From the NCBI GenBank assembly GCA_030679255.1, contig JAUXTO010000013.1:18696-82695 (forward strand): DNA of 64,000 nt, given 5' to 3'. How positions within the stretch are numbered: position 1 is the first letter of the stretch; each line of letters starts with the position of its first letter. Source of the DNA: Candidatus Gottesmanbacteria bacterium (lineage in GTDB: Bacteria > Patescibacteriota > Microgenomatia > UBA10105 > UBA927). Positions 11,101 through 51,758 of the stretch are shown one piece after another. The translations under genes were made by a program, and so were the position numbers. The notes below the pieces were generated by a model. That model saw only the letters and a program-made list of their open reading frames with translations. It searched no databases and was not told the origin of the DNA.

Positions 11101-11697
11101 TTATTTATCAAACACCTTGGCTACTAAAGCATTTAGAGATTTACTGGCGAAAAGCTTTGTATATATTTTTACCTTGTTTACATCAACAGTTGATAGGTCA
11201 AGGCGCTCTGACAGTGCTCTTCTCCCGAGTGAAACCGCATAGAGATAATCGACAATAGCTTTTTCCGGATCTGCAATAAAAAATCTTTTATGATCTGCTA
11301 CTTTCATTTCATATCCTGTATATGCACGAAGTTTAATAGTGGTATAGCGAAAACTTTTTGAATCAACCATATATTCCCGGGTAGGCTTCGTGGTAGCTGA
11401 AGTTATGGTGTAGACCATATCAGGTAAAATATTGTAATAAGCAAGTGCAAATTCAAATGATAGATATGAAGGGCGGTAAAGTTGATTAGCGATTTCCAAC
11501 TCAGAAGGTGGGTCAGTTTTCAGATAATACATCCCCCGTTTAGCCTGGATAAATAATCCATTCTCAGTACCTTTTTGGAGATAATACAGTGTTTGTCTGT
11601 TCGATAAAGAAAGCAATACGCCAAACTCCCGCGCTGAAAATATTGGGAGATGCTTGGCTAACAATGTATCTCTTATGCCTAAAAATGATGTTTTCAT
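11101..11697 (-). CDS. AbiEi-family antitoxin, copy 3
   Basis: 198 aa, immediately upstream of AbiEii #3, with a 2-nt gap. Confidence 0.6.
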   Translation of the reverse strand: MKTSFLGIRDTLLAKHLPIFSAREFGVLLSLSNRQTLYYLQKGTENGLFIQAKRGMYYLKTDPPSELEIANQLYRPSYLSFEFALAYYNILPDMVYTITSATTKPTREYMVDSKSFRYTTIKLRAYTGYEMKVADHKRFFIADPEKAIVDYLYAVSLGRRALSERLDLSTVDVNKVKIYTKLFASKSLNALVAKVFDK

Positions 11698-17019: not shown

Positions 17020-17026
17020 AATCATC

Positions 17027-18187: not shown

Positions 18188-18927
18188 AAGATAAAAAAAT
18201 AGTATTCATGGGTGGAAAGCATGTAGGATATAAGTGCTTGGAGTTTCTTATCCAAAATGGTTACCAAACAATAGGTTGTTACATAAATTCGGATGACACT
18301 GCGACAAATCGTTGGTATGACTCTCTAACGGAGCTCTGTTTACGACAGGGAATACCGGTTTTCTACTTCGCTAATGTCAATTCTGTTGAAAGCGAAAAAA
18401 CAATTCGTCAATTAGCCCCCGATGTCATCACTGTCGTCTATTATGATCAAATACTTCATGAAAATATCATCGATCTTCCGAAAATCGGCTGCACCAATCT
18501 GCACCTTGCTTTATCTCAAGTACACAGAGGCTGCTATCCCACAACATGGAGCTTGATACGAGGAGATACACATACGGGAGCCACGTTCCACTTTATTGTC
18601 CCTAAAATTGACGGCGGTCCAGTTATCGCTCAAAAAAAATTAAAAATCAAAGACTATTGGACCGGTAAGGATCTTTATGCCAACGTGTCTGACGTCGGTA
18701 TAAAGCTTTTTAAAGAATTTTTTCCAAAGCTGGATAGAATTAAACCGCACGCTATTGACATATCCAAATCTCAATATTATCGAAAAGAATTCCCCTCCCG
18801 TGAAGTAAAACTAAACAAAAGTACCTATAATTACGTCAGGTCACTAATATTTGATCCGTTTCCTCCGCCCTATATAAAAATTGGCAATCGTATTTTTACC
18901 ATAAATGAAATGACACTTGATTATTAG
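18184..18927 (+). CDS. Sugar N-formyltransferase-family protein, copy 2
   Basis: NLHLALSQVHRGCYPTTWSLIRGDTHTGATFHFIVPKIDGGPVIAQ is the formyl-transferase core. ATGA overlap with the upstream aminotransferase. Confidence 0.7.
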   Translation: MKDKKIVFMGGKHVGYKCLEFLIQNGYQTIGCYINSDDTATNRWYDSLTELCLRQGIPVFYFANVNSVESEKTIRQLAPDVITVVYYDQILHENIIDLPKIGCTNLHLALSQVHRGCYPTTWSLIRGDTHTGATFHFIVPKIDGGPVIAQKKLKIKDYWTGKDLYANVSDVGIKLFKEFFPKLDRIKPHAIDISKSQYYRKEFPSREVKLNKSTYNYVRSLIFDPFPPPYIKIGNRIFTINEMTLDY

Positions 18928-19872: not shown

Positions 19873-20942
19873 ACCCGAAGTGCCTGTTGTATTTCCGGAA
19901 GGGTACGGAGAAGAGCAATAACGCCTGCTACATCAAGTTGTATCGTGCTTGCCGATGTATAAGCGTCAATAGTATCGACATCTTTTTGTTCCTTACCCCC
20001 ACGCAATAGATACTTATTGTAATCCAATCCCTGGCTCTCCGGAGGAATATCAAAGTAATTATCAAGTTCGTGAGCTCTTGCCATTTCCTCTTTCGATACG
20101 AGAGTCTCGTGTATCTTCTCCCCTGCACGCATCCCGATCTCCTCATATCCTTCTTTATACCCAAACAGTTTGCACATCGCCTGAGCAAGAGTCTCTACGC
20201 TGCATGCAGGAGCCTTGCGGACATAGATATGCCCGCTCTCTCCATGAGTAAGCGCATACATAACCAAACCAACGGCATCCCGCAGCGGTAGAAGAAATCT
20301 CGTCATAGACCCGTACGTAAGAGTGAGTTTCTGTTTTTTCTTCATAAGGTCTATATAAAATGGAATAACCGATCCGCGTGAATACAACACGTTGCCATAC
20401 CGCACGCCACAGTACACGCCTCCGGATTTTCCGGTTGGGGGATAATTTTTTGCTGCGGCGATCATCGTTTTTTCCATGAGCGCCTTTGCCATACCCATGG
20501 CATTAATCGGATAAACGGCCTTATCCGTGCTTAAGACAACGACACGCTTCACTTTGTGAAATGCTGCAGCAGAGAGTACATTATGGGTACCAATGATATT
20601 GGTCTTAACTGCCTCCATCGGGAAAAACTCACAACTGGGAACCTGTTTGAGTGCCGCAGCGTGGAAAATATAATCAACCCCCTCTATTGCCCTCATGACA
20701 CTTTGCTCATCCCGCACGTCACCGATAATGAACGTTAATTTCGGATTATTGAACTCATTGCGCATATCATCCTGTTTTTTTTCGTCCCTGCTATAAATAA
20801 TGATCTTCTGAGGGTCATAGTGAAGAAGTTCAACAGCTACGGTATGGCCAAATGATCCTGTTCCTCCGGTTATCAGTATGGTCTTGCCGGCTAAAGCAAC
20901 TTCGAGGTCCTTACGAATTGGTGTTTTCAAATCATTTTTCAT
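19869..20942 (-). CDS. UDP-GlcNAc 4,6-dehydratase of the PglF/PseB/CapD family
   Basis: ILITGGTGSFG, IIYSRDEKKQ, FIIGDVRD, LSTDKAVYPINAMGMAK. Met replaces the SDR catalytic Tyr, as reported for the PglF/WbpM type. Start taken at the internal Met (MKNDLKTP). Confidence 0.75.
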   Translation of the reverse strand: MKNDLKTPIRKDLEVALAGKTILITGGTGSFGHTVAVELLHYDPQKIIIYSRDEKKQDDMRNEFNNPKLTFIIGDVRDEQSVMRAIEGVDYIFHAAALKQVPSCEFFPMEAVKTNIIGTHNVLSAAAFHKVKRVVVLSTDKAVYPINAMGMAKALMEKTMIAAAKNYPPTGKSGGVYCGVRYGNVLYSRGSVIPFYIDLMKKKQKLTLTYGSMTRFLLPLRDAVGLVMYALTHGESGHIYVRKAPACSVETLAQAMCKLFGYKEGYEEIGMRAGEKIHETLVSKEEMARAHELDNYFDIPPESQGLDYNKYLLRGGKEQKDVDTIDAYTSASTIQLDVAGVIALLRTLPEIQQALRV

Positions 20943-23064
20943 ATGTTGTGGATCTCCTTTTTTGGATAAACAATAATACGAAATATCCACCAAACAAAAA
21001 GGCTGTTACCAAAGATACTATACTTCCGTAAGTATATACGTTTTGTTGCCTAAAGTTAATGTCTACCGTATAAGTCCCGATTTGATTGAACTGAAAACTA
21101 TTTAAACCGAAAGGAGTCGACCGGTTTACGATCATTTTTCCATCTGCCGTAGCTTGCCAATACGGATTGTAATGTTCAGAAAAAATGAGCGTTGTAGGCA
21201 CGTCAACTGATACATTGACGAGATAATGAGTTTGACTTAATTCCTTGTACGAAATCGATTCTTCTGCCATGAATCCGTCACGCTCTAATTGAAACTTGCC
21301 GAAAGGATCAGAAACTTCGTAAACCGCGAGGTTCTGAAATGAACTATCCCGCGTAAGCCATGGCATTGAATCCAACCTGCTTACAAAGGCTTGACGCTGA
21401 CTGTCATCATATTTCCTGTCTTTAGTAAAGATCTCCCCATAGGGATCGTACGGAACGACTACGAATCGCACAGCGAGTGATCGGAAGAGGTCTACAAGAT
21501 TTTGCTGATCCATGTGGCGTAATAATTCTCCAGAATTCGTAGCTTGGAAAAGAGGAATCGCCTCTGTGGACGGATGCGTATTGGAATAGAAAGCGAAACG
21601 TGGCTGCCTGGGCATCCATAACGTCCGGGAGAATGTCGTATCCTCTGAGAGAATATTCTTTAATTGTATATATTCTCTTGGCACAGACCGTTCGCTAAAT
21701 GTACCCTGAAGTTGCACAAATATCGCTTGTCTACTCAATATAATCCAGAAAAAAATAAAAATACCATACAGGGAATGACGAAATATAAATATTTTGACAT
21801 TACCATTACCGGACCGTATCCCGCGGCTCAGTAGCGTTGATACCCATAGTAAAAAATGCTCAATGGCCAAAGGAATGAGAACGGCGTATGAAAGAATTAT
21901 AAATAAGTAGAATTTCGTAGGATCACGAAATAGCGCGAAACCGGGAATTTTTTCGTACATCCATATATTCACAAAACCAAAGGGCTCATTTGCTCCTTTT
22001 GCCAAAAAAGCTCCGATAAGAGCAAGGAGGGAGAGAAACCGAATAGACAATACAGACACCTGTTGTTTATTGTTTACTGTTTTTTGTCCAATCCACACGA
22101 GTGAACTAAACGCAAGTACTGGCAACACGAGGAACTCCGGCCGTAGAAAATATACCTTTCCGAATATATTTTCCGGCCAGTTGGGATGGAGCAGCGATAT
22201 TCCATTGGAAAATGTAGCAAAAGAATGAAATATAAATGCTCCGGAAGACGTATAATTTGAAACCAAACTATCTAAAGGAGTCGTTCTATATACGAGTATC
22301 GGGAGAATCCATGAGGCATGGAGAAACAGACTGATAAGTATCGGTAACCCGAAGACATACGTCAATTTTTTGAAAACAGGCTTAAACTTGAAACCGGATG
22401 TACTTGCAGTAGAACGGACGTGATCTATCACATAAACGACGAAATAAAGAAATACTGCAATAGCTACAAGATATGCTATTCTTGCATCAAACAGCATCAC
22501 AACTGCAAAAGATATACCCGTACCAAGCGATTTCCGTAAAAAATCACTTTTTTCTAATATAACATTGTGTATCAGTTGTATCCAATGTCCAAGAGCCAAT
22601 GGTGCAAAAGCATATGCTAAAGCAACGCCCAGTTGTCCCCCGCCAACCACCATAAGAATATAGGTATTCGTACTGTAGATAAGAAGCGCAATAATCCATT
22701 GCCAGGGCTTTACCCGAAGACATAGAACATGAATTAAATAATATGCAGAATAGAGAGATCCGACTATAAATAGTCCGAAATAAAAGACTTTATACACAAT
22801 ATTCCATGGAATATTCATTCCACGAACAAATATCGAAGAAATACTATACAGGTAGCTATCTAAAGAATACACTATGGGTATCCCTCCCAATCCGTTGCCC
22901 TGATACGCTCCCCATGAAGAAACCCAGAGTGGTAAACTTTTAAGAAACTCCGTAGAGAAATACGGCCAGTCACCCCCGATTATTTCACTATACAGAAACC
23001 ATTGCCGAAAAAACACGAACGCTATGACCACTACGACGCTGATAAATAGCAACATCTTCTTCAT
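20932..23064 (-). CDS. Large polytopic membrane protein with a C-terminal extracytoplasmic domain and C-terminal TM anchor (GT-C/YfhO-like architecture), family A
   Basis: 710 aa. More than 10 predicted TM helices. N-terminal loop IIGGDWPYF..GNGLGG resembles the FW..PGE.D.GGD..RLYFY..GIGG motif of the next two large proteins. Confidence 0.55.
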   Translation of the reverse strand: MKKMLLFISVVVVIAFVFFRQWFLYSEIIGGDWPYFSTEFLKSLPLWVSSWGAYQGNGLGGIPIVYSLDSYLYSISSIFVRGMNIPWNIVYKVFYFGLFIVGSLYSAYYLIHVLCLRVKPWQWIIALLIYSTNTYILMVVGGGQLGVALAYAFAPLALGHWIQLIHNVILEKSDFLRKSLGTGISFAVVMLFDARIAYLVAIAVFLYFVVYVIDHVRSTASTSGFKFKPVFKKLTYVFGLPILISLFLHASWILPILVYRTTPLDSLVSNYTSSGAFIFHSFATFSNGISLLHPNWPENIFGKVYFLRPEFLVLPVLAFSSLVWIGQKTVNNKQQVSVLSIRFLSLLALIGAFLAKGANEPFGFVNIWMYEKIPGFALFRDPTKFYLFIILSYAVLIPLAIEHFLLWVSTLLSRGIRSGNGNVKIFIFRHSLYGIFIFFWIILSRQAIFVQLQGTFSERSVPREYIQLKNILSEDTTFSRTLWMPRQPRFAFYSNTHPSTEAIPLFQATNSGELLRHMDQQNLVDLFRSLAVRFVVVPYDPYGEIFTKDRKYDDSQRQAFVSRLDSMPWLTRDSSFQNLAVYEVSDPFGKFQLERDGFMAEESISYKELSQTHYLVNVSVDVPTTLIFSEHYNPYWQATADGKMIVNRSTPFGLNSFQFNQIGTYTVDINFRQQNVYTYGSIVSLVTAFLFGGYFVLLFIQKRRSTTYEK

Positions 23065-23066
23065 GA

Positions 23067-23696
23067 CTAAATAGTTTTTACGGCAAAAAGATCAAATGAC
23101 TTAGTGGGAAAAAAATATAAGATTGGCTCCGTAATAAAAGCAATGAGACCCCAAAAAAACCATGGCTTATACTTTATGGTCGCAAACTCACCTCGGAGCC
23201 AATGAAAACTTCGTAGTCCATGTACTATGTATCCCCGTTTTTCAAAATCCTTAGCTGACCAACCGGAGTGATGATCCTGATATGGATTATTGTCATAGTG
23301 ACCTTGTTTACAAAAACCATTTGGGGTAAGGATAATTACTTTTTTCTTCGCGATACGCTCCATGCTACTCATGAACAAAAATGCCTGTTTTTTTGTCAAA
23401 TGTTCGATTACGTCCATTGCTACAACAGCATCAAAACTCTTCGGTTTATAGTAAACATCTAATTTTGTTATATCTCCGACTTTATATTTATTATGAAGTT
23501 TATTTTTTTTACTTATGGTGACGCTTTTTCTGTCAATTTCAATTCCTTCCGAATAGATAGATTTAATCTCAGACCGGATTGATGAATTCTGACCGCATCC
23601 AACATCCAGTATCGATGTGCAACCTGACAACTGCACGCGGACTGCAGTATGGAAAAACATATCTTTATTCTCATGAATTAATTGTATTATGTTCAT
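23067..23696 (-). CDS. Class I SAM-dependent methyltransferase
   Basis: ILDVGCGQNSS, DAVVAMDVIEHL. AT-rich. Confidence 0.7.
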   Translation of the reverse strand: MNIIQLIHENKDMFFHTAVRVQLSGCTSILDVGCGQNSSIRSEIKSIYSEGIEIDRKSVTISKKNKLHNKYKVGDITKLDVYYKPKSFDAVVAMDVIEHLTKKQAFLFMSSMERIAKKKVIILTPNGFCKQGHYDNNPYQDHHSGWSAKDFEKRGYIVHGLRSFHWLRGEFATIKYKPWFFWGLIAFITEPILYFFPTKSFDLFAVKTI

Positions 23697-23700
23697 AAGT

Positions 23701-26700
23701 CTATGACGTCCATTTTCGATTACGTAAAAAAATCAGACTGGCAATAACTCCCAACAATGTGACCATTGATACCCCAAGGAAAATATAAAAATAGTTTTGT
23801 GTAGACATTTCCATAATTAATGTATAGGATGATCTGTTTTCCATGTCTTCCGGCTCAATAATCCATCCATTGGCGTATCCGTTTACTCTGAAATGTCCTT
23901 TTTCCGCCACTGACTTTTTACCCCATGATGTAAAATTCCGCATATCAAAGAATGAATTGGAATTTTTTCCTTCCTTTACCAATCCGTTGAAATATTCTGC
24001 GACTATGGCGTTGTTTCCGGCGCCGTCGTTTTTATTAACCACAGGTGTCTTTGATATGAACGCGCCGAGCAAATTCATTACCCTTGAAACCCAATCTTCC
24101 TGTCTACGCGAAACATCTATTAATTTCCATTGATCGTCATATGCTTCCAAAAACATGAGCACATACGGATTCATTGCATTGGTCACCTTTATTTGATATC
24201 GAGTCGGATTTATTTTAGAAAACTCAACCGTGGGCTCTTTGAATGAATTATTCACATCCGTTGATTGTTTTACATATAATATCTTCGGATTATATACTTC
24301 AACTATAGAAAGTTGTTTTATATCAATTGCAGCATTAGTTTTTTTTGTATTGTTTAGAAATTGGATAAATCCAGCTATCGACGTTAAATCCGTAGTCACT
24401 ATAGCCTGATGAGTTGTCCATTCATTTGCTGATAACGCATGTTCCAGATATACATGCCTTCTTATATCATTCTTATCGTCGTTTACGAAACGTTTGTCAA
24501 ATATGCGAAATAATACACTATCTCCATGAGTATTATAGTTGAAAGTGATCACAAATTGTTTTTTTGGAGCCCAATAATCTATTTGTCTGACTAAACCCCC
24601 TGAATTATCGCCAGGCGTATTTACAAGTGATAGTGACTCAACTGTATTATCCTTCGTTATGATGCTTCCGGATGTCTCCCAAAAACTATTTTGAACATAA
24701 TTAGATTGCTTTTGTAAAAGAACCTGAAATGGATTTTTCCCGTCTTTTGTAAAAACTACAGATCCAAGTCTCAACAAATTGGGCGACTTACTATCAATTT
24801 TTTGTCTAAGGCTGTAATTGTCAATATCTAATTGGATATCTGATACCAAATCGGGTAATGCTAATTCCGAATCCGATTGTAAGCCCTGTATGAATACGTC
24901 ATATATATTTTTATTGGATATATTTGGAATTTTTACACCGTAAAGCAATACCGACGGGTCATACACTTTTAGCTTTAACTGCTTATCTAACCTGTCAAAC
25001 ATCTGGTTTATTTCTACTTCAAGATACTGTATCTCCGTATCCTTCTTACGGTTGCTCTGCAGAAGTTTAGTGAGTACATTACGATGCTGCCACAGTTGTT
25101 CACTTATCTTGATCTGATCTGCTTCATGTAAACTATCAGATAATTTATTTATTCCTATCCATTCAATAATGCTATTCATTCCTGACTCATATCGGGATAA
25201 ACTCGCCTCCCAACTGAAATATCGGTTTATACTTAAGATGTTACTAATTTTTGGCGGTGGGACTGTGTGATTAACTATCGGCAACGTATCACCCCAGCGC
25301 TGTAGCTCCAGAATTCTCTTTGTCAGAAAATAAAGACTAAAATCCAAATAACGACTATGGTTATTCCTGCTCCGCCACAATTGAACTTTCTCTTTTATCA
25401 AAACAAGCGGGTATAAATAATTATCCAACTTCACCGATACAAAAGGCTCATGTCGATGCAGATGGTAGTTATCCCTGAGTGATTCTAAGGGACCATCTGA
25501 TTCTGCCTCCAATATGACATTATCTGATGATTTATCCGAATTGCCTATATGAAAAATTGCACTTTTAATATCTTTATTCAGTTGAGAATTGAGAATAAAT
25601 GAATCCGGAAATGAGGTATATATTCTATCTGATGTTGTATATATGTGTGGTAAATAGCTATCATCCGTTATAGAATAAAGATATTTGTCATTTCTTAAGT
25701 TTTCAGTTTTACCCGTATCAAGAGGAAATTTTGGCAACAATGTTTGATATTCTTTTTGTGTTTTGGGCATATAATCCCGAACATAATCGTAAGGAAACGA
25801 CGGAAAATTATCGTCATAGATATACGGATCACTGTTATAAAATATATATTTGATATTTAACACAGAAATTAATCTGTTCACTATATCAAAATCATTACTA
25901 CGGACGGCTTCGATGAAGCCTTGACCATATGGTCCTAATCCGCCATAACCCGGAAAATCGTTTTTTCCGGCTAAGTAGGAAAACATAGATGGCCCGATAT
26001 AGACTCCTCCGTCTTTTCCTGCAATCACCTGATAACCGGGGCCAGTCAAAGGTAATGACAATATTTTACCGTCAACCGGAAGAAGACGAATTTTATCTAT
26101 TAATGAATCAATGCCTGAATCCATACGGATATTTTGTTTTATCAATTTGGAACGAACATGAACGTCATTTACCATCGATCCATTTATAAGCGGATATGCA
26201 CCGGAAACCAGAACAATAAAAAATAAGAGAAACAATAGATATCGATATCTATTCCTAATGCCCGATGCAACGACAGCAACGCACTGTCCAATCAGGAGCG
26301 CGTAAAAAAAGACATACACAGTAGACCACTGCCCGTAGAAATTACGAAACATTTTAAAGCCCGGTATATAAAAAAGTGCTTTATAAAGATTAAATCCGAG
26401 TGAAGTAATATTGGCAGAAACAAAAAATAGTGTAACAAGGAAAAAAAACAAAGTTAAGAGCGTGCTATCGCTTAACCACCCTCCTCCCTTTTTTCGATTC
26501 ATTATAAGACCCCATAGTAAAACGAGGGGAAAAAACACTGAGCCAAACGACGTCCACGCTATATCACGTACTTGTGCCAAATTAAATAGGCTTATACTTA
26601 CCTTAATACTCGGTGCTATTGCAGTAAAATAATCTAATCCCCGCGATATGCTACTTTCTTCAGAAAAAACTGCCTTATACTGACTTTTAAAAAAAAGAAG

Positions 26701-27453
26701 ACTTAATACATGCGGCAGTATATGAAAAGCCTGTAGCAATAGAAATAAAATAGATCCTGCGATTATGCCTTTCCAAGGAAACTTTTTTTGAAGTACCCTG
26801 ACACTGTAGATATATAAAAATACTAAAGAAAAGGGAAAAAATGAAAAAAAACCCGGAGCTGAAAAGAAAGAAAAATTAAAGGAAAACAAAAATGTAAACA
26901 AAAGCACAACTAATAAATATTTAAATCGATGTGAAATTATATATCGAAGTAATAAATAAAACATTAGCGGGTAGACAAAAATTTGCGTATGGGTAAGTAT
27001 CGCCCTATCCCAACCGCTGTTGACCATAATCGGAGAAAATACATAAAATAACCCTGCTGCAATTGCAGAAAATTCAATAATCCACGCATCGAAATTTTTT
27101 CGGTTATAAGAAAGCAGCTCTTTCACGATGAGGTAACACGCCAAAAATCCGACGCTTAACTTCAGTCCATTGGATATTCCGATCAGGATCGTTGGTGTGA
27201 ATAGTAAACGTAGAAATCCTAAAACCAATAGATACGGAATAGCAAAATAACTTAGCGAATCTCCACCGATACCCGAAGGGATTATGTTGTAGAGAAAAAG
27301 TGCCTTGAGATACATCATCGGTTGGTAAAAGTATAAACGGGTTGAGTCGCCTCCCAGATCCATTTCTCCAGGTTTTAACCAAAAAAAGGGAATAACAAAA
27401 AGTAGAAGTGTAATTAAGATAAATGGAATTTTATGCAGGCTATGTGTTTTCAT
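23701..27453 (-). CDS. Giant (about 1250 aa) polytopic membrane protein, family A paralog: N-terminal multi-TM GT-C-like domain, long extracytoplasmic region, C-terminal TM anchor
   Basis: FFWLKPGEMDLGGDSTRLYFYQP..SGIGG in the first loop. C-terminal ..HFRVNGYANGWIIEPEDM..YTLIMEMSTQ.. plus a final TM, homologous to 27778-30246. Start set at the internal Met (MKTHSL..) to abut the small ORF. Confidence 0.6.
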   Translation of the reverse strand: MKTHSLHKIPFILITLLLFVIPFFWLKPGEMDLGGDSTRLYFYQPMMYLKALFLYNIIPSGIGGDSLSYFAIPYLLVLGFLRLLFTPTILIGISNGLKLSVGFLACYLIVKELLSYNRKNFDAWIIEFSAIAAGLFYVFSPIMVNSGWDRAILTHTQIFVYPLMFYLLLRYIISHRFKYLLVVLLFTFLFSFNFSFFSAPGFFSFFPFSLVFLYIYSVRVLQKKFPWKGIIAGSILFLLLQAFHILPHVLSLLFFKSQYKAVFSEESSISRGLDYFTAIAPSIKVSISLFNLAQVRDIAWTSFGSVFFPLVLLWGLIMNRKKGGGWLSDSTLLTLFFFLVTLFFVSANITSLGFNLYKALFYIPGFKMFRNFYGQWSTVYVFFYALLIGQCVAVVASGIRNRYRYLLFLLFFIVLVSGAYPLINGSMVNDVHVRSKLIKQNIRMDSGIDSLIDKIRLLPVDGKILSLPLTGPGYQVIAGKDGGVYIGPSMFSYLAGKNDFPGYGGLGPYGQGFIEAVRSNDFDIVNRLISVLNIKYIFYNSDPYIYDDNFPSFPYDYVRDYMPKTQKEYQTLLPKFPLDTGKTENLRNDKYLYSITDDSYLPHIYTTSDRIYTSFPDSFILNSQLNKDIKSAIFHIGNSDKSSDNVILEAESDGPLESLRDNYHLHRHEPFVSVKLDNYLYPLVLIKEKVQLWRSRNNHSRYLDFSLYFLTKRILELQRWGDTLPIVNHTVPPPKISNILSINRYFSWEASLSRYESGMNSIIEWIGINKLSDSLHEADQIKISEQLWQHRNVLTKLLQSNRKKDTEIQYLEVEINQMFDRLDKQLKLKVYDPSVLLYGVKIPNISNKNIYDVFIQGLQSDSELALPDLVSDIQLDIDNYSLRQKIDSKSPNLLRLGSVVFTKDGKNPFQVLLQKQSNYVQNSFWETSGSIITKDNTVESLSLVNTPGDNSGGLVRQIDYWAPKKQFVITFNYNTHGDSVLFRIFDKRFVNDDKNDIRRHVYLEHALSANEWTTHQAIVTTDLTSIAGFIQFLNNTKKTNAAIDIKQLSIVEVYNPKILYVKQSTDVNNSFKEPTVEFSKINPTRYQIKVTNAMNPYVLMFLEAYDDQWKLIDVSRRQEDWVSRVMNLLGAFISKTPVVNKNDGAGNNAIVAEYFNGLVKEGKNSNSFFDMRNFTSWGKKSVAEKGHFRVNGYANGWIIEPEDMENRSSYTLIMEMSTQNYFYIFLGVSMVTLLGVIASLIFLRNRKWTS

Positions 27454-27767
27454 TCTTTTAGTTGCTGCACCAAGCCTACTCCCATTAGAAAAAATAACCA
27501 CACTGCTGCTTTTTCCGTATTTTCCGAAGCACCTGACAAAAGAAATTCAATATACATAATGATCAATACGAAAAGGCTTAAAATAAACGTGAAACGACCT
27601 GACAATTTATAAATAAAAATACTTGCTATATAGATTCCTAATAAAGTAAAAATCCGTATGTCCGAACTTTCTTTCAAAAAAAGAATATCCGCACAAATCC
27701 CCAAAAAGATTGTGGTTAAAATAACCTGCTTGCCTTGCTGTAATACATTGAATACCTTCTTTCTCAT
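27450..27767 (-). CDS. Small (105 aa) 3-4 TM membrane protein (GtrA/DUF2304-like size class), function unknown
   Basis: Hydrophobic helices; sits between the two giant paralogs. Confidence 0.4.
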   Translation of the reverse strand: MRKKVFNVLQQGKQVILTTIFLGICADILFLKESSDIRIFTLLGIYIASIFIYKLSGRFTFILSLFVLIIMYIEFLLSGASENTEKAAVWLFFLMGVGLVQQLKE

Positions 27768-27777
27768 AAGATAGTAA

Positions 27778-30246
27778 TTATAACGTATGACGAATGCGAT
27801 TGATAGATGATCTACAAACGTAAATACCTAATAGCATAAGCGATGCAGCTGATATAAATGTACCTATCCAAAATATCCGTTGTCCAGTCATCTCAATGAT
27901 TAAATCATAAGTTTCTTTATTATCCATATCTGTAGGCTTTATGTACCAGGCGTTGGCATAGCCATTCACCTTAATATGTGTATTTTCCGGAAGTGATTTC
28001 ATACTAAGGGTCTCAAATGCATTTCTATCAAATATATTATTATTGATATTCCCTTCTCGGATTTCACCGTTAAAATATGCCGTAGCCAGAGAAATTATCG
28101 GGACTTCTTTTGAAGAAAAAAATACCTTCCATTTTTCGTGGAAAGCTTCTGAAAATACCAAAACATACGGATGGTTCGCACCGGATACTTTTACTTTATA
28201 CTTTGTCGGATTAATTCGTTGGAATTGAATATATATTCTATTTGCGCCTTGGGGTACCTCGTTTCTTTGACAAATTGTTACAGACAATATCGTGTTACAA
28301 GTACTCCTGTCCAGATAAATTGAACGAAATACTTTTTTGATTCGATCATCAAAAAAAATATTTGATTTGGCATATGGACTTGAAACAGGTTTTTCATCGT
28401 AAATAAGTACATTACTTGCAACGTAAATGTGAGGCAATAAATCCTTCTCTTCCAAACGATAAATTCCATACGGTCCTGCTTCAAATATTTTATTTGTAGT
28501 CAGATGATCAACGAATTCTTTATATTCCTTCTGATTTTTTGGTAAATATTTACGCGCATAAGAAGTAGAATATGGGTATTCTGGAAAGGTACCATCATAA
28601 ATTAATGGATCCGAATTGTAAAATATATATTGAATATTTAAGATACCGAACATTAACTTAATTAAATCATAATTTCTTTCCCTACTAAGTTTCCAAAACA
28701 TATCGCTAAATGGTGCTAGATCCTGATAACCCGCAAAATCCTTCTTTCCCGTTAGCTGCCCTATCATGGATCGCCCGACAAATGCACCATTATTCAGCCC
28801 ATGAACTACTTGATAATCATAATCGGTAGAGGGTAAAAGTAGAATTTTTCCATCATTTGGTAGTGATCGAATATAATCTAACACTGTCTCAAATTTGGGA
28901 TCCATCACGATACCTACTCTCGTCGTTGATTGAACGTTTAACTGATTTACCAGTTGACCGTTAATAAATTGCCATGAACTAACGATAAAATAGAGCACTA
29001 TAGTAGATGAAAATATTATCACGTACTTGTGTTTTAACCGATTCAATAAAAAAAACGCGGTAACTCCAAATAAAAGTGAGTAAAAAAAGTAGTATACAAA
29101 TTGCCACTGTCCGTAAAAATTTCTAAACATACTAAATCCCGGAATATAAAAAAGACTTCTATAGAGATCGATACCAATATTCGTAATTTTTGCGTTTACT
29201 AAATAATAGGTTAGAAGGAAAAAAAGTCCTATCAGAATAGCTGTCTTATCATATTTTTTCTTCAATATAATACCCAAAATAATTACGAATGGTATGATGA
29301 TGGATGCCCATGATATTTGACTGTACACTGAATGTGCAAACCATCGAAGGCTCAATTTCGGAATTGCCAACGCGCTGGAAAAATATCCTATTTGCTCTAA
29401 CATGTAAGCGTTGTCAAATACGCGAGTATTTGTAGTACTCCCCGGCGAAAAAAGATCAAAAAATTCCGGTAATAGATGAAAAGCATGCAGTCCTAGGAAC
29501 AATAAAAGTCCGAACAGCAGCCCTTTCCAGGGCATTTTTCGTTTCAGGATAAAAACCGTATAAACGATCAGAAATATGATACCTAATGGATAAAACGCAA
29601 AAAATGGAGGCGCTGCGGTCCAAGAAAAGCTATGGCTAAAAAACAAACTTACGAATAATCCTAAACTTAGAAATCGAAATTGTGAGGTAGTTATATACTT
29701 TAAAAGGAGATAGAACATGAGAGGGTTTAAAAATACCTGATCTTGGGAAGGTAAAGCTCGAACGTAATTTTCTGTCATAGCCGGGTTAAAAATATAAAAA
29801 AAGCCAGCAAGAATAGACGCCACCCTAATAACTATCAACGTCCTTTTCTCGGTTACGTTTCTCCCCAACAGCTCATTCACAATCCCGTAAACTGCTAAAA
29901 ACCCTACAGCCACCTTCATACTGTTGTAAAGTGTAAGTAAAATGTATGGAGAATGAATTACTTGTTTCAAAATAGCAAGAACCGATAAAAGAGGAAGATA
30001 AAAAAATCTTGAGTTAAGCCCACCAATTCCGAACGGTAGTACTAAGTACGCTGAATTTTTAATCAGATTTACCGGATCATAAAAATAAAGCCTTCCGCCA
30101 TCTCCACCGATATCTATCTCCCCCGGCCTAAACCAAAAAAATGGAACTACCATTAGCGCACAGGAAACCAAAAGCGCCAGCCAGTGACACTTTATGAAGA
30201 ATCGAATCACACGAAAATATCTATCCATATCAAACGATAATGACAT
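27778..30246 (-). CDS. Large (822 aa) polytopic membrane protein, family A paralog
   Basis: FFWFRPGEIDIGGDGGRLYFYDP..GIGG. C-terminal NPTKYKVKVSGANHPYVLVFSEAF.. and HIKVNGYANAWYIKPTDM..YDLIIEMTGQ plus a TM, parallel to 23701-27453. Confidence 0.6.
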   Translation of the reverse strand: MSLSFDMDRYFRVIRFFIKCHWLALLVSCALMVVPFFWFRPGEIDIGGDGGRLYFYDPVNLIKNSAYLVLPFGIGGLNSRFFYLPLLSVLAILKQVIHSPYILLTLYNSMKVAVGFLAVYGIVNELLGRNVTEKRTLIVIRVASILAGFFYIFNPAMTENYVRALPSQDQVFLNPLMFYLLLKYITTSQFRFLSLGLFVSLFFSHSFSWTAAPPFFAFYPLGIIFLIVYTVFILKRKMPWKGLLFGLLLFLGLHAFHLLPEFFDLFSPGSTTNTRVFDNAYMLEQIGYFSSALAIPKLSLRWFAHSVYSQISWASIIIPFVIILGIILKKKYDKTAILIGLFFLLTYYLVNAKITNIGIDLYRSLFYIPGFSMFRNFYGQWQFVYYFFYSLLFGVTAFFLLNRLKHKYVIIFSSTIVLYFIVSSWQFINGQLVNQLNVQSTTRVGIVMDPKFETVLDYIRSLPNDGKILLLPSTDYDYQVVHGLNNGAFVGRSMIGQLTGKKDFAGYQDLAPFSDMFWKLSRERNYDLIKLMFGILNIQYIFYNSDPLIYDGTFPEYPYSTSYARKYLPKNQKEYKEFVDHLTTNKIFEAGPYGIYRLEEKDLLPHIYVASNVLIYDEKPVSSPYAKSNIFFDDRIKKVFRSIYLDRSTCNTILSVTICQRNEVPQGANRIYIQFQRINPTKYKVKVSGANHPYVLVFSEAFHEKWKVFFSSKEVPIISLATAYFNGEIREGNINNNIFDRNAFETLSMKSLPENTHIKVNGYANAWYIKPTDMDNKETYDLIIEMTGQRIFWIGTFISAASLMLLGIYVCRSSINRIRHTL

Positions 30247-31438
30247 CAGGCACGGGAATGATAAACTTTCCCCCCTTCTTCTGATACTCAGTCAGAAAAC
30301 CCATCACTTCGTCCGAAATGTTCCATGGCAGAATCAGAACGTAATCCGGACGGTCATCCACGACTTTAGACGGAGGGTAAATAAGAAAATGTGTCCCCGG
30401 CGTATAGAGACCTTGTTTTGCTTCAGATTTGTCAGCAATGAAGTCCAAGAACTTGCCGAGTCGGAAATAGTTAAGAAGCACCATGCCTTTGGCGGGAGCG
30501 CCATATGCCGCGACGCGTTTGCCGTCTTTTTTAAGCTTCTTTAACAAACCCGTAAGCTGGGTACGTAATTTCTCTACGTTTGTGCGGATTTTGAGATAGC
30601 TTGACAACCTATGAAAACCATGCTGATGCTCTTGGTCAACGAGTTCTCGTACCTGTTCGGAGGCTGAATACATACCCTCGTGACAAACAAAAATCCTAAG
30701 CGACCCGCCCTGCATGTGCACGAACTCGCAATCATAGATACAAAGATTGGCTCGCGCAAAGAGATTTTGCAGCGCAAGAAGTGAATAATAAAAAACATGC
30801 TCGTGATAGATCGTATCAAATTTATTTTCAAACAGGCCGCCGATGTATGGCGACTCAAATACCGCGGTTCCTGTTTTTTTAAGCACCGTCGACACGCCAC
30901 GGACGCACCCGAGGATATCCGGAATGTGAGCTAAGACATTCGCGCCGTAAAGCAAATCAGCGTGAATATTACTACGCGCTAATTCTTTTGCGACTTCGTG
31001 TCCAAAGAACGCAGTCTTTGTAGGTATGCCCTTTTTGATCGCTTCGGCGGCCACGTTCCGGGCCGGGTCAATGCCCAATACCTTTATCCCCGCTTTTTGG
31101 TACCACCGGAGATGGACTCCGTCATTGCTGCCTATCTCTACTACCAGACTCCCTCTCCCTAGTTTTAGTCGCTGTATAAGATAATAAGCTGTTGTTTTGC
31201 TGTACTCGATGATGCTTTGAGTGGTAGAAGAAAAATACAGATAATGACGAAACAGATCCTTGGGATCAACAATTTTGAGAAGCTGTACGAGGTAACATTT
31301 TTGACAAAACCCAACGCTTAGGTCAAAGCTGCGTTCGTTAGGGATATCTTTTTTTTTGAGAAAAGCGTTGACCGGCGGCATGGCGCCGAGAGAGAAAAAT
31401 TCGGTGATCGGATGCCCGCATGCGCGACAGCGTGTCAT
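30230..31438 (-). CDS. NDP-sugar C-methyltransferase family (TylC3/NovU-like; Zn-ribbon + SAM domain + C-methyltransferase C-domain)
   Basis: CRACGHP..CQKCYLVQL, VVEIGSNDGVHL, and C-terminal AAYGAPAKGMVLLNYF..DFIADKSEAKQGLYTPGTHFLIYPP..DYVLILPWN. Confidence 0.75.
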   Translation of the reverse strand: MTRCRACGHPITEFFSLGAMPPVNAFLKKKDIPNERSFDLSVGFCQKCYLVQLLKIVDPKDLFRHYLYFSSTTQSIIEYSKTTAYYLIQRLKLGRGSLVVEIGSNDGVHLRWYQKAGIKVLGIDPARNVAAEAIKKGIPTKTAFFGHEVAKELARSNIHADLLYGANVLAHIPDILGCVRGVSTVLKKTGTAVFESPYIGGLFENKFDTIYHEHVFYYSLLALQNLFARANLCIYDCEFVHMQGGSLRIFVCHEGMYSASEQVRELVDQEHQHGFHRLSSYLKIRTNVEKLRTQLTGLLKKLKKDGKRVAAYGAPAKGMVLLNYFRLGKFLDFIADKSEAKQGLYTPGTHFLIYPPSKVVDDRPDYVLILPWNISDEVMGFLTEYQKKGGKFIIPVPDVIIV

Positions 31439-47747: not shown

Positions 47748-48566
47748 CTACCCCGTATTTATGCGGAAATTTAGTTCTGGGTCAAATAGCCATTTTCTTT
47801 TATTCACGTTGTCATAGTAATGAAGAATCCTTAACCGGTAAAAAACAGCGAGCGTTTCCCAAAGCACATTGGCGATGATATTCCAAAAATTCTTTGACGT
47901 AATACTGGATACACCGCCGAACGTAAGCTCTACAGGTGCCTCGTAAATCCGGGTATACCCTAGCCGGTGTGCAACGGAAAGAATTTCGATATCAAAAGCA
48001 AATTCCTTCACCAAGAGTCTGGGTAGAACATCTTCAAGCACAACACGACGGTATAATTTGAGGCCCACCTGTGAATCACGGATGTTTAATCCAAATAGTA
48101 TCTTTACCAACACTTGATACCCGAAAGACAATACTTTTCGAAAGAATGGGTATTCTACTTTCGAAGCCGGGTGTCTCTTACTACCAATGATACAATCAGC
48201 GTTATACCAATTAAAATGTGCAAGAAGTATGGATATTCCCTCTGACTTCAAATCGCCTCCCGCATCGATAAATCCAATGATGTCTCCGTGGCTTTTTGCC
48301 ATGCCAAAACGCACTGCATAACCTTTTCCATGATTGGTCGCATAACCCGTGATAACTATATGGGGTGAAGTAACTTTTGATACTTCTTCCCGGCTTCGAT
48401 CCATGTACCCGTCTACAACCACGATAATCTCATAATCAATCCCAAGAGTATCAAGCTCCGCCACAATGGACCGTAAATTTTGGGCAATTACTTTTTCCTG
48501 TTTATAGACAGGAACGATGAGTGATAACAATTTAAGCTTTTTTCGTAACATACTTATAATAAACAA
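47748..48566 (-). CDS. GT2 polyprenol-phosphate glycosyltransferase (DPM1-like)
   Basis: LSLIVPVYKQE, VVVDGYMDRS, ..IGFIDAGGDL.. Confidence 0.75.
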   Translation of the reverse strand: MFIISMLRKKLKLLSLIVPVYKQEKVIAQNLRSIVAELDTLGIDYEIIVVVDGYMDRSREEVSKVTSPHIVITGYATNHGKGYAVRFGMAKSHGDIIGFIDAGGDLKSEGISILLAHFNWYNADCIIGSKRHPASKVEYPFFRKVLSFGYQVLVKILFGLNIRDSQVGLKLYRRVVLEDVLPRLLVKEFAFDIEILSVAHRLGYTRIYEAPVELTFGGVSSITSKNFWNIIANVLWETLAVFYRLRILHYYDNVNKRKWLFDPELNFRINTG

Positions 48567-51047: not shown

Positions 51048-51758
51048 TTAAACAAATCTTTGATAGATAAGCGTGCCGAGAGCAATTATCCCATCCCTCC
51101 AGGTCAATTTTTTCCCTTCGGAAAACTTACGGCCAAAATAGGAAATCGGCACTTCATATATCTGATGGCCGGACTTGAGCACTTTAGCGGTAAATTCCGG
51201 CTCAAAGTCAAACCGTCGGGCGTGGATGAATATCCCGTCCAGGACCGTACGTCGAAACACTTTATATCCCGTTTCCATGTCCGTAATATTCGTATTGTAA
51301 AGGATGTTGGTCACCCATGTCACAAACTTATTGCCAAGCGCATAGAGATACATGGTCGAAAGATGCGCGCCTAAAAACCGTGATCCGTAGACGACCGTCA
51401 CCCGTGCATTGGTAAATGGCTCAAGGAGCGTAGGGTAATCTGCAGGACTATATTCTAAATCCGCATCCTGAAGGAGGATTAACTGCCCTGTCGCCTGTTT
51501 TATGCCTTCGACAATTGCAGCTCCTTTCCCCTGATTTTCTGGTTGAACGAGAAGCGTAATTTTCTTTTTCCATGGGGCAAGGATTCCCCCCGTTTTATCT
51601 GTCGAACCGTCATCTACGACAATGACCTGCTTTTTCCAACCCGCCAGACGGACGGCAAAAACGCGTTTAAGCACTTCCTCAATGGATGCTTCTTCGTTAT
51701 AGACCGGAATGATGATAGTTAATTGCTGCATGAAAATAATACTATCACGCCAGAGCAC
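51048..51758 (-). CDS. GT2 polyprenol-phosphate glycosyltransferase (DPM1-like)
   Basis: LTIIIPVYNEE, VVDDGSTDKT, LLQDADLEY. Confidence 0.8.
   Translation of the reverse strand: MLWRDSIIFMQQLTIIIPVYNEEASIEEVLKRVFAVRLAGWKKQVIVVDDGSTDKTGGILAPWKKKITLLVQPENQGKGAAIVEGIKQATGQLILLQDADLEYSPADYPTLLEPFTNARVTVVYGSRFLGAHLSTMYLYALGNKFVTWVTNILYNTNITDMETGYKVFRRTVLDGIFIHARRFDFEPEFTAKVLKSGHQIYEVPISYFGRKFSEGKKLTWRDGIIALGTLIYQRFV

What the first reader, a model, noticed from the sequence alone, without database searches (positions are those of the whole stretch)
20932..30246. AT-rich island encoding three paralogous giant membrane proteins (710, ~1250 and 822 aa) with shared N-terminal GGD loop motif, shared C-terminal domain and terminal TM anchor
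The three proteins share an N-terminal loop motif (FW..PGE.D.GGD..RLYFY...GIGG). They share C-terminal blocks (NPT(R/K)Y..KV..A..PYVL.F.EA...WK. ; H..VNGYANxW.I.P.DM....Y.LI.EM..Q) followed by a single C-terminal TM helix. A SAM methyltransferase and a small membrane protein are interleaved. The architecture fits processive extracytoplasmic glycosyltransferases or glycan-length-determining enzymes of the GT-C/YfhO/AftD kind, but no family assignment can be made by eye. The 1250-aa member has a roughly 600-aa insertion of unknown function. The composition is much more AT-rich than the flanking C-methyltransferase/ugd block, suggesting horizontal acquisition.
Basis: partly seen in the sequence, partly recalled or inferred. 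Interest (0 to 1): 0.65.

Follow-up and report, generated by a model that had tools for sequence, protein, structure and literature searches.

The report
Three AftD-like membrane glycosyltransferases, conserved cassette
Three unannotated giant membrane proteins in a Gottesmanbacteria (ultra-small CPR bacterium) surface-sugar gene cluster are divergent relatives of the mycobacterial cell-wall enzyme AftD, and they sit in a fast-evolving cassette conserved across related bacteria that probably builds or decorates a cell-surface glycan outside the membrane.

Summary
Minus-strand genes encode A (710 aa), a SAM methyltransferase (209 aa), B (1250 aa from the conserved ATG at 27453), a 4-TM protein (105 aa) and C (822 aa). 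B and C are clear paralogs (38% identity). A is related only at profile level (hhalign 99.2%, E 1e-19). B's insertion is about 420-450 aa, not 600. None of A, B or C hits Pfam, NCBIfam or PDB by sequence.

The order C-small-B-(MT)-A recurs in at least 17 Patescibacteria loci. In the closest relative the flanking genes are 85-91% identical, but C, small and B are only 64, 58 and 46%, and the same low-GC island is present.

Best reading: a new subfamily of minimal AftD-like GT-C glycosyltransferases that use lipid-linked sugars in a hypervariable surface-glycan locus. Donor, acceptor and the role of the small protein are inferred.

The parts
27778..30246 (-). Gene C: 822-aa minimal AftD-like GT-C glycosyltransferase. 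It has about 11-13 TM helices, an alpha/beta periplasmic domain, a beta-sandwich and a terminal TM helix.
30073..30126 (-). Loop-1 motif of C (residues 41-58, PGEIDIGGDGGRLYFYDP). It holds the invariant G47 G48 D49 and near-invariant E43, R52, D57. This is the candidate catalytic/donor-binding loop.
   Evidence: Conservation in 45 sequences. It aligns with AftD PGQISPDTKLD, which contains the essential K39/D41. D49 equals D32 of A.
27784..27882 (-). C-terminal TM anchor of C (residues 789-821), followed by a basic cytoplasmic tail.
   Evidence: AF2 helix 789-821. Hydropathy. Homologs carry cytoplasmic GT1 or SAM-MT domains fused after this helix.
27450..27767 (-). Small 105-aa membrane protein with 4 predicted TM helices. 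D36, F61, E85 and G98 are invariant. It is always found between a C-type and a B-type gene. It is a candidate lipid-linked-sugar flippase or accessory subunit (inferred).
   Evidence: ORF. Hydropathy. Alignment of 31 homologs. Position conserved in the cassette loci listed. No Pfam or PDB match. Its stop overlaps the B start codon (ATGA).
23701..27453 (-). Gene B: 1250-aa paralog of C carrying an inserted module. The true start is the ATG at 27453; the mechanical ORF extends to a GTG at 27501.
   Evidence: 38% identity to C over 712 aa plus 34% over the C-terminal 178 aa. Full-length orthologs at 32-47% identity, all starting at the equivalent Met.
24256..25620 (-). B-specific insertion (B residues about 612-1066) between the alpha/beta domain and the terminal beta-sandwich. 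A predicted helical segment is followed by a beta-rich segment. It may be a glycan-binding (CBM-like) module (weak evidence).
   Evidence: Boundaries from the C-family HMM and hhalign. Conserved in 18 orthologs. Only weak CBM_4_9 / GalBD_like hits in 2-3 of 19 members. No PDB hit. The AF2 model failed at pLDDT 37.8.
27346..27372 (-). Loop-1 motif of B (PGEMDLGGD, residues 28-36 from the ATG).
   Evidence: Sequence. Aligned with C.
23728..23784 (-). C-terminal TM anchor of B.
   Evidence: Hydropathy peak at residues 1240-1258 of the GTG-numbered ORF. Aligns with the anchor of C.
23067..23696 (-). 209-aa soluble class I SAM-dependent methyltransferase. It is an optional cassette member: present in L007, L019, L074 and L075, and fused to a C-type protein in P0084.
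   Evidence: Pfam Methyltransf_31/11/25. Loci. Fusion.
20932..23064 (-). Gene A: 710-aa distant paralog of B and C (19% identity at profile level) with the same architecture. It retains the AftD-type R-x-x-x-K (R380, K384).
   Evidence: hhalign A1 vs A2 prob 99.2%, E 1.2e-19. hhalign vs distant relatives plus AftD prob 100%, E 3.5e-58. Weak NCBIfam MmpA hit over residues 314-409. 4 of 49 homologs hit Pfam YfhO.
22957..22986 (-). Loop-1 motif of A (EIIGGDWPYF, residues 27-36). D32 is invariant.
20965..21021 (-). C-terminal TM anchor of A (residues 682-700), followed by the tail KRRSTTYEK.
   Evidence: Hydropathy. Sequence.
51048..51758 (-). Context: 236-aa GT2, a candidate polyprenyl-phosphate hexose synthase that could make the lipid-linked donor (inferred).
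   Evidence: NCBIfam AglJ 1e-33, PpgS 3e-18, Dol-P-hexose transferase 1e-17 and ArnC-type 1e-16. All are below the curated cut-offs.
47748..48566 (-). Context: 272-aa GT2, a second candidate polyprenyl-phosphate sugar synthase (inferred).
   Evidence: NCBIfam ArnC-type 3e-13 and PpgS 3e-10, both sub-threshold.

Best explanation
A, B and C are three divergent, previously unannotated members of the AftD branch of the GT-C glycosyltransferase superfamily.

Architecture. Each is a 'minimal AftD'. It has an N-terminal GT-C membrane domain and an extracytoplasmic alpha/beta domain. A beta-sandwich follows, and one terminal TM helix returns the tail to the cytoplasm. AftD's three CBMs and its ACP-binding TM13-16 bundle are absent. 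B alone carries an extra module of about 420-450 aa, inserted where AftD carries its CBMs.

Proposed mechanism (inferred). Cytoplasmic enzymes of the surrounding 40-kb cluster make unusual nucleotide sugars and a lipid-linked glycan. These enzymes include UGD, epimerases/dehydratases, DegT aminotransferases, formyl-, acetyl- and C-methyltransferases, and GT1/GT2 enzymes. DPM1/AglJ/ArnC-like GT2 enzymes load single sugars onto polyprenyl phosphate. These donors are flipped, possibly by the conserved 4-TM protein encoded between C and B. On the outer face, the three GT-C enzymes each add a residue in a different linkage or to a different acceptor of a cell-surface glycopolymer. The invariant loop-1 Asp and the conserved Arg of the IPGF..FR loop would do the catalysis. 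B's extra module would hold the growing glycan. The 209-aa methyltransferase would modify a cytoplasmic precursor.

Shown versus inferred. Shown: fold, homology, conserved residues, cassette conservation and fast divergence. Inferred: donor, acceptor, flippase role and order of action.
For: Fold:
- The AF2 model of C has pLDDT 87.9 and pTM 0.88.
- Foldseek gives AftD E 5.9e-10, prob 1.0.

Sequence chain:
- The C-family profile finds full-length relatives in other bacteria and in archaea.
- 6 of 10 such relatives pass the Pfam GT-C_AftD gathering threshold.
- Their profile hits AftD in the PDB at E 1.8e-27 over AftD residues 17-566.
- hhalign of the C and A families against that profile gives prob 100%, E 4e-83 and 3.5e-58.
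- A is related to C at prob 99.2%.
- A weakly hits MmpA, which is itself an AftD N-terminal homolog (PMC8698533).

Active-site candidates:
- D49/D32 and R375/R380 are invariant in both families.
- They align with the AftD segments that contain the essential K39/D41 and the LRNVHK motif with K361.

Topology:
- The N- and C-terminal tails are basic.
- Homologs are fused after the last TM helix to cytoplasmic GT1 or SAM-MT domains.

Context:
- The window is one large glycan cluster that includes DPM1/AglJ/ArnC-like GT2 genes.
- The gene order C-small-B-(MT)-A is conserved in at least 17 loci.
- The family has about 4640 clusters at 50% identity.
- Against the closest relative, flanks are 85-91% identical while C, small and B are 64, 58 and 46.5%.
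Against: - None of A, B or C reaches any Pfam, NCBIfam or PDB sequence threshold on its own.
- Two of the five residues essential in AftD are not kept. K361 is Gln in B and C. The D474/E475 position is R/S in C and T/H in A. The E251 equivalent could not be assigned.
- The exact equivalence of D49 with AftD D41 is uncertain by about 2 residues, because no coordinates were available for superposition.
- The small protein has no similarity to GtrA, SMR or any other known flippase.
- The candidate polyprenyl-phosphate sugar synthases lie 17-21 kb away and score below the curated cut-offs.
- The structure of B's insertion could not be modelled.
- There are no biochemical data for any member of this family.
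Confidence: 0.72

Rival explanations
1. They are protein glycosyltransferases. They would be OST-like, PMT-like or PgfM/YfhO-like enzymes that transfer sugars from lipid carriers onto S-layer proteins, pilins or other surface proteins, rather than onto a polysaccharide.
Against: AftD is clearly the best match, and it alone also aligns over the soluble domains: 606 aligned residues against 330-420 for the others. The sequence chain leads to GT-C_AftD and not to STT3 or PMT. No WWDxG motif is present in A, B or C. There are no PMT/MIR domains.
Confidence: 0.15
2. One or more of the three, most likely those that have lost AftD-essential residues, are non-catalytic. They would be scaffolds or lipid/glycolipid handling proteins, as proposed for the AftD-like MmpA of Corynebacterineae.
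For: A's only direct database hit is MmpA, and MmpA is proposed to be a scaffold or transport factor (PMC8698533). K361 and D474 equivalents are missing in B and C, and D474 in A.
Against: The loop-1 Asp and the EL5-type Arg are invariant across hundreds of homologs in both families. The soluble alpha/beta GT-C domain is retained. Fusions to GT1 and MT domains and the setting in a glycan cluster argue for an enzymatic role in glycan synthesis.
Confidence: 0.08
3. They are glycan polymerases, ligases or chain-length regulators (Wzy-, WaaL- or Wzz-like) rather than single-sugar transferases.
For: The proteins are large polytopic membrane proteins with periplasmic domains. A Wzx-like flippase gene lies at 48532-49791, and no other obvious Wzy gene was identified.
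Confidence: 0.05

Closest known systems
AftD (Rv0236c / M. abscessus AftD; Pfam PF11847 GT-C_AftD; PDB 6W98, 6WBX)
   Different: The proteins here are 710-822 aa against about 1400 aa. A and C have no CBM1-3, and none has the TM13-16 bundle or the ACP partner. Sequence identity is about 10-12%. K361 becomes Gln in B and C, and D474 is not conserved. None matches PF11847 directly. The host is a CPR bacterium; no DPA/arabinan pathway was seen among the window ORFs that were scanned. Three paralogs sit in one operon together with a dedicated 4-TM protein.
YfhO family GT-C enzymes (Pfam PF09586; LTA/WTA GlcNAc transferases; PgfM1/PgfM2)
   Same: They are large GT-C enzymes of monoderm envelopes with an extracytoplasmic domain and a C-terminal TM helix. 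4 of 49 A-family homologs hit PF09586 weakly. They work in multi-component systems made of a GT2 polyprenyl-P-sugar synthase, a small flippase and a GT-C enzyme (PMC8035078).
   Different: A, B and C themselves do not match PF09586. There is no adjacent CsbB-type GT2 and no GtrA-family protein. The profile link to AftD is much stronger than to YfhO.
MmpA (NCgl2761 / Rv0226c; NCBIfam NF053599)
   Same: It is an AftD-N-terminal-like polytopic membrane protein. It is the only curated model that A touches (E 4e-7, residues 314-409, the IPGF..FRDPTKF loop).
   Different: The score is far below the cut-off (28.9 against 210 bits). MmpA is linked to trehalose-mycolate export in mycolic-acid bacteria, which has no counterpart here.
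Three-component / multi-component periplasmic glycosylation systems (GtrA-GtrB-Gtr*, CsbB-GtcA-YfhO, GT136 ORF12 system)
   Same: The logic is the same: a lipid-monophosphate sugar donor, a small or dedicated flippase, and a GT-C enzyme acting after export. The GT-C enzyme is sometimes extended by a CBM (PMC8035078, PMC11127046).
   Different: Here three GT-C paralogs are encoded together. The small membrane protein belongs to no known flippase family. The candidate donor synthases are not adjacent.

Membership tests
GT-C superfamily (fold class) | Polytopic N-terminal membrane domain with the GT-C helix arrangement | tested here: met
GT-C superfamily (fold class) | Conserved acidic residue(s) in the first extracytoplasmic loop | tested here: met
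   D49 is invariant and E43 and D57 near-invariant in the C family. D32 is invariant in the A family. B has PGEMDLGGD. D49 equals D32 in the profile alignment. An acidic residue is kept at this site in distant relatives.
GT-C superfamily (fold class) | Use of polyprenyl-phosphate-linked sugar donors on the extracytoplasmic face | not testable with these tools
   Only context is available: DPM1/AglJ/ArnC-like GT2 genes in the window, and a topology consistent with an outside-facing soluble domain.
AftD family (Pfam PF11847 GT-C_AftD) | Direct match to PF11847 above the gathering score | tested here: not met
   No Pfam hit for A, B or C at E <= 1, and none among the 45 and 49 aligned homologs. 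The link is only transitive: 6 of 10 distant relatives pass the gathering threshold, and their profile hits AftD at E 1.8e-27.
AftD family (Pfam PF11847 GT-C_AftD) | GT-C membrane domain plus alpha/beta soluble domain superposable on AftD | tested here: met
AftD family (Pfam PF11847 GT-C_AftD) | Three carbohydrate-binding modules in the periplasmic domain | tested here: not met
   A and C have only the alpha/beta domain and one beta-sandwich. B's 420-450-aa insertion sits at the corresponding place, but it has only marginal CBM_4_9/GalBD hints and no usable model.
AftD family (Pfam PF11847 GT-C_AftD) | C-terminal membrane re-entry (TM12) plus the TM13-16 bundle that binds acyl carrier protein | tested here: not met
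   There is a single terminal TM helix only, followed by a tail of 7-12 residues. The TM12-like helix is present; the four-helix bundle is absent.
AftD family (Pfam PF11847 GT-C_AftD) | Residues essential in AftD: K39, D41, E251, K361, D474 (bioRxiv 10.1101/2019.12.22.885152) | tested here: inconclusive
   The loop-1 Asp is present but its register is uncertain by about 2 residues. K361 corresponds to K384 in A but to Q380 in C and B. The D474/E475 position is R492/S493 in C and T496/H497 in A. E251 could not be aligned.
YfhO family (Pfam PF09586) | Match to PF09586 | tested here: not met
   No hit for A, B or C. 4 of 49 A homologs hit weakly, best E 3.4e-8. 0 of 45 C homologs hit.
Oligosaccharyltransferases (STT3/PglB/AglB) | WWDxG motif in the soluble domain | tested here: not met
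   A regular-expression search finds no WWD in A, B or C.
Three-component periplasmic glycosylation system (GtrA/GtrB/GT-C) | GtrA-family (PF04138) or SMR-type flippase encoded with the GT-C enzyme | tested here: not met
   The small 4-TM protein and 30 homologs have no Pfam or PDB match. Only its size and its position next to the GT-C genes resemble such flippases.
Three-component periplasmic glycosylation system (GtrA/GtrB/GT-C) | GT2 polyprenyl-phosphate sugar synthase | tested here: inconclusive
   The GT2 genes at 51048-51758 and 47748-48566 resemble AglJ, PpgS, Dol-P-hexose transferases and ArnC, but they score below the curated cut-offs and lie 17-21 kb from the cassette.

The most novel reading that the evidence does not exclude
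The cassette is a self-contained extracytoplasmic glycan assembly line specific to Microgenomates and other Patescibacteria, analogous to the mycobacterial Emb/Aft arabinan machinery. Three sequentially acting minimal AftD-like transferases would work with a new family of 4-TM lipid-sugar flippases. Together they would build a hypervariable surface polymer. Its rapid diversification (B is 46% identical where the flanks are 91%) would reflect selection from phage, predators or host-cell attachment in these ultra-small, probably symbiotic bacteria.
Probability: 0.2. Interest if true: 0.7.

Novelty: new variant of a known kind. Interest (0 to 1): 0.45.

Why it matters
The cell envelope of CPR/Patescibacteria is almost uncharacterised, yet it is the interface through which these reduced bacteria attach to hosts and are recognised by phages. 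This work gives a fold and a family to two large groups of 'hypothetical proteins' (about 4,600 clusters at 50% identity for the B/C type alone). It shows they are stripped-down relatives of an essential mycobacterial cell-wall enzyme. It also defines a conserved four-to-five-gene cassette with a new small membrane partner.

For GT-C enzymology, the proteins offer a minimal AftD scaffold in which two AftD-essential residues are naturally replaced. That should help separate catalytic residues from substrate-specific ones.

On its own, the result is a solid annotation advance rather than a new principle.

Tried and rejected
- Direct family assignment failed. Pfam and NCBIfam scans of A, B, C and the small protein gave nothing usable. 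phmmer and profile searches of the A and C families against PDB sequences gave nothing. The single distant relative L048 also gave nothing against PDB.
- The structure of B's soluble half (residues 431-1266 of the ORF) could not be modelled. The 9-sequence alignment was too shallow, the model reached only pLDDT 37.8 and is unusable, so no fold search was run on it.
- The homolog search with B's C-terminal half returned only 9 proteins because of the word index. Orthologs were recovered instead from genome loci.
- B's insertion shows no similarity to C, A, the distant relatives or itself. It is therefore not an internal duplication of the terminal beta-sandwich.
- The afdb50 fold library was unavailable.
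- An intrinsic AT bias of the cassette was rejected. In 16 other genomes the cassette GC equals its flanks, with a mean difference of -0.005.
- A recent private HGT event was rejected. The same low-GC island with the same flanks exists in the closest relative.
- An OST identity was rejected because there is no WWDxG motif.
- The promoter/terminator scan of 18.5-38.4 kb found nothing above shuffled controls, so operon boundaries rest only on gene spacing.
- Literature searches for Patescibacteria GT-C enzymes found nothing relevant.


Full report
WHAT IS THERE

The interval 20932-30246 holds five minus-strand genes with almost no intergenic space:
- C: 27778-30246, 822 aa.
- Small membrane protein: 27450-27767, 105 aa.
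- B: the mechanical ORF runs to a GTG at 27501.
- SAM-dependent methyltransferase: 23067-23696, 209 aa, Pfam Methyltransf_31/11/25.
- A: 20932-23064, 710 aa.

Every ortholog of B begins at the Met encoded at 27453. That ATG overlaps the stop codon of the small gene (ATGA), which gives B 1250 aa.

Exact or near-exact database copies come from a 307-kb contig of a Candidatus Gottesmanbacteria MAG (Microgenomates group, Patescibacteria). They are annotated 'hypothetical protein'.

The genes lie inside a run of glycan-biosynthesis genes that fills most of the window. These include UDP-glucose dehydrogenase, epimerases/dehydratases, three DegT aminotransferases, two formyltransferases and two sugar C-methyltransferases. 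There are also a hexapeptide acyltransferase, many GT1 and GT2 enzymes and a Wzx-like flippase.

CHECKING THE OBSERVATION

B and C are unmistakable paralogs. They share 38% identity over 712 residues (E 4e-126) and 34% over the last 178 residues.

A is a different matter. BLASTP against B or C gives only E about 0.01, over the beta-sandwich block. A has GGD but not PGE.D, and GLNSF where B and C have NGYANxW.

Profile-profile comparison of 45 C-type and 49 A-type sequences shows full-length homology (hhalign prob 99.2%, E 1.2e-19, 599 columns, 19% identity), with the GGD motifs aligned. So 'three paralogs' is true only in the distant sense.

All three proteins have a hydrophobic N-terminal half, a long non-hydrophobic region and a single terminal TM helix followed by a basic tail.

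Relative to C, B's insertion spans B residues about 612-1066. After trimming the homologous edges it is about 420 aa, not about 600.

The island really is AT-rich. It has 36.3% GC against 43.3% for the rest of the window. Third-codon-position GC is 0.31-0.38 against 0.44-0.50 in the neighbouring genes, so amino-acid composition alone does not explain it.

WHAT THE PROTEINS ARE

No Pfam, NCBIfam or PDB sequence search assigns A, B or C directly. The exception is a far sub-threshold hit of A (residues 314-409) to NCBIfam MmpA. MmpA is itself reported to be homologous to the N-terminal 668 residues of AftD (PMC8698533).

An AlphaFold2 model of C built on the 45-sequence alignment is confident (mean pLDDT 87.9, pTM 0.88).
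- Foldseek independently ranks the three AftD entries first (E 5.9e-10 to 2.9e-7, prob 1.0), then AglB and STT3.
- Only AftD aligns over the soluble domains as well as the membrane domain.

A sequence chain confirms the fold result.
- The C-family profile recovers full-length relatives at 21-28% identity in other bacteria (Dehalococcoidia, Rhodospirillales, Omnitrophota, Roizmanbacteria) and in archaea (Methanothrix, Bathyarchaeota, Micrarchaeota).
- Seven of ten such relatives hit Pfam PF11847 (GT-C_AftD), six of them above the gathering score, with a best of 55.6 bits.
- A profile of 19 of them hits the AftD PDB sequences at E 1.8e-27, aligned to AftD residues 17-566.
- hhalign of the C and A families against that profile (with AftD added) gives probability 100% and E 4e-83 and 3.5e-58.

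The three window proteins are therefore divergent members of the AftD branch of GT-C, lying beyond the reach of the current Pfam model.

ANATOMY COMPARED WITH AftD

According to the AftD structure paper (bioRxiv 10.1101/2019.12.22.885152), AftD has these parts in order:
- 11 TM helices with the GT-C fold;
- a periplasmic alpha/beta domain shared with other GT-C enzymes;
- three CBMs and a structural beta-sandwich;
- a single re-entering helix, TM12;
- a TM13-16 bundle that binds acyl carrier protein.

K39, D41, E251, K361 and D474 are essential in AftD.

C has the membrane domain (helices between residues 7 and 428), an alpha/beta domain (about 450-620), a beta-sandwich (about 660-786) and one terminal helix (789-821). 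It is a minimal AftD without CBMs and without the ACP-binding bundle. A has the same plan.

B inserts its extra module of about 420-450 aa between the alpha/beta domain and the beta-sandwich, which is where AftD carries its CBMs. That module is conserved in all 18 B orthologs examined (20-36% identity within the module). It is unrelated to the rest of the protein. Its only database signal is marginal: CBM_4_9 and galactose-binding-domain hits in 2-3 of 19 members. The attempt to model it failed for lack of alignment depth (pLDDT 37.8). The low-confidence secondary structure suggests a helical segment followed by a beta-rich one.

CONSERVED RESIDUES

Residues conserved at >= 85% in both the A and C families (C numbering) include W38, G47-G48-D49, G75, Y151, P175, F203 and P260. 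Also conserved are P369-G370...F374-R375, P472, D546, W706 and N761.

- Loop-1 segment. 'PGE.D.GGD' aligns with AftD 'PGQISPDTKLD', which holds K39 and D41. The aligners put D49 on K39, so its equivalence with D41 (or D37) is uncertain by about two residues.
- 'IPGF.MFR' motif. It aligns with AftD 'LRNVHK', so R375(C)/R380(A) correspond to AftD R357. AftD's essential K361 corresponds to the invariant K384 of A, but to Q380 in C and B.
- AftD D474/E475 position. It is R492/S493 in C and T496/H497 in A.
- AftD E251. It could not be placed.

The universal GT-C hallmark, an invariant acidic residue in extracytoplasmic loop 1, is present in all three (B and C also have an ExD just before it). Part of the AftD-specific constellation is replaced, which points to a different donor or acceptor. 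No WWDxG oligosaccharyltransferase motif is present.

TOPOLOGY

The N-terminal and C-terminal tails are basic. In two homologs the terminal TM helix is followed by a cytoplasmic-type domain: a GT1 glycosyltransferase in P0039, and a SAM methyltransferase in P0084 that resembles the window's 209-aa enzyme. This places both termini in the cytoplasm and the large soluble domain outside. It also links the GT-C step functionally to cytoplasmic glycosyl transfer and methylation.

GENOMIC CONTEXT AND EVOLUTION

ORFs from 73 related loci were scanned with the family HMMs. The order C (about 810 aa), small protein (about 115 aa, sometimes duplicated), B (about 1200-1280 aa) and A (about 690 aa) recurs in at least 17 loci. 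These come from Levyibacteriota, Microgenomates and other Patescibacteria MAGs. The methyltransferase is an optional extra, and additional C-type copies sometimes lie upstream. The upstream genes (C-methyltransferase, UGD, epimerase, nucleotidyltransferase, GT2, GT1) are syntenic in at least two other genomes.

An exhaustive HMM search finds 4,640 clusters (50% identity) at E <= 1e-3 and 792 at E <= 1e-30. More than half of the best 150 are long B-type proteins.

In 16 other genomes the cassette's GC equals that of its flanks (mean difference -0.005), so the cassette is not intrinsically AT-rich.

The closest relative (L074) has an identical gene order and shows the same compositional step: UGD 51% and C-MT 48% GC against C 36%, small 35% and B 34%. 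Protein identity to the window falls from 91% (UGD) and 85% (C-MT) to 64% (C), 58% (small) and 46.5% (B). It then recovers to 72% (MT), 78% (A) and 76% (Polysacc_synt_2).

The island therefore predates the split of these two genomes. Its GT-C genes either evolve several-fold faster than their neighbours or have been replaced by divergent alleles. That is the classic signature of a surface-antigen locus.

HOW IT PROBABLY WORKS (INFERENCE)

By analogy with AftD/Emb enzymes and with multi-component transmembrane glycosylation systems (PMC8035078; PMC11127046), the steps would be:
1. Cytoplasmic enzymes of the cluster make modified nucleotide sugars and a lipid-linked glycan.
2. GT2 enzymes resembling AglJ, PpgS, Dol-P-hexose transferases and ArnC (51048-51758, 47748-48566; sub-threshold hits) load single sugars onto polyprenyl phosphate.
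3. The donor is flipped to the outer face.
4. A, B and C each transfer a sugar to a surface glycopolymer in a distinct linkage or position.
5. B's extra module grips the polymer.

The 4-TM protein has invariant D36 and E85 at membrane boundaries and is translationally coupled to B. It has the size and position of GtrA/SMR-type lipid-sugar flippases but no detectable similarity to them. It could equally be a subunit of B or C.

ALTERNATIVES

- Protein glycosylation (OST/PMT/PgfM-like) is the main rival. It differs only in the acceptor.
- A non-catalytic MmpA-like role is possible for some paralogs.
- A polymerase, ligase or chain-length role has no support.

VERDICT

The result is a new, widely distributed but unannotated subfamily of a known enzyme class, set in a conserved and rapidly diversifying cassette of CPR bacteria. 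It is a useful annotation and a reasonable experimental lead, not a new kind of system. Interest 0.45.

Noticed in passing
window 52796-54397, 54387-55997, 59636-61366, 61341-62987 (minus strand): Four more large polytopic membrane proteins lie in the same glycan super-cluster. Two have weak Pfam PTPS_related hits. One has a YfhO / PgfM1 / PgfM2-like C-terminus. They are probably further GT-C-type enzymes.
   Followed up: partly
window 10379-11098 and 11101-11697; 11932-13242; 49799-50956: An AbiEii toxin gene (type IV toxin-antitoxin) sits next to an unknown neighbour. Two AAA_14/DUF4143 ATPase genes are also present. All lie in or beside low-GC patches inside the glycan cluster, so they look like mobile or defence-type inserts.
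   Followed up: no
window 30230-31438 and 36814-38070; 14771-15586 and 18184-18927; 16994-18187, 39943-41055, 42031-43266: The window has two sugar C-methyltransferases, two formyltransferases and three DegT aminotransferases. The glycan made here probably contains C-methyl-branched and N-formylated amino sugars.
   Followed up: no
P0039 (1258 aa; also L001 10001-13777) and P0084 (1039 aa): These are natural fusions of a C-type GT-C protein. After its terminal TM helix it is joined to a cytoplasmic GT1 domain (P0039) or a SAM methyltransferase domain (P0084). This fixes the C-terminus in the cytoplasm and links the steps functionally.
   Followed up: yes
loci L008-L012, L017, L018, L023, L025-L030 and others: Many MAG records titled 'uncultured Gammaproteobacteria bacterium' (TPA_asm co-assemblies) carry the same cassette as Levyibacteriota and Gottesmanbacteria. 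The titles are probably placeholder or wrong taxonomy.
   Followed up: no
loci L036, L043, L048, L056-L058, L064, L071 (C-terminal regions): The terminal beta-sandwich carries INPT.Y...FSE..H..WK and H..ANGYANAW motifs followed by a TM helix. It is far more conserved than the rest of the protein, and it occurs in archaea and many bacterial phyla. It behaves as a widespread, unnamed domain of AftD-like GT-C proteins.
   Followed up: partly
window 27453-27501: The mechanical ORF of B starts at a GTG 48 nt upstream of the conserved ATG and overlaps the small gene. The ATG at 27453, which overlaps the small gene's stop (ATGA), is the start supported by all orthologs.
   Followed up: yes
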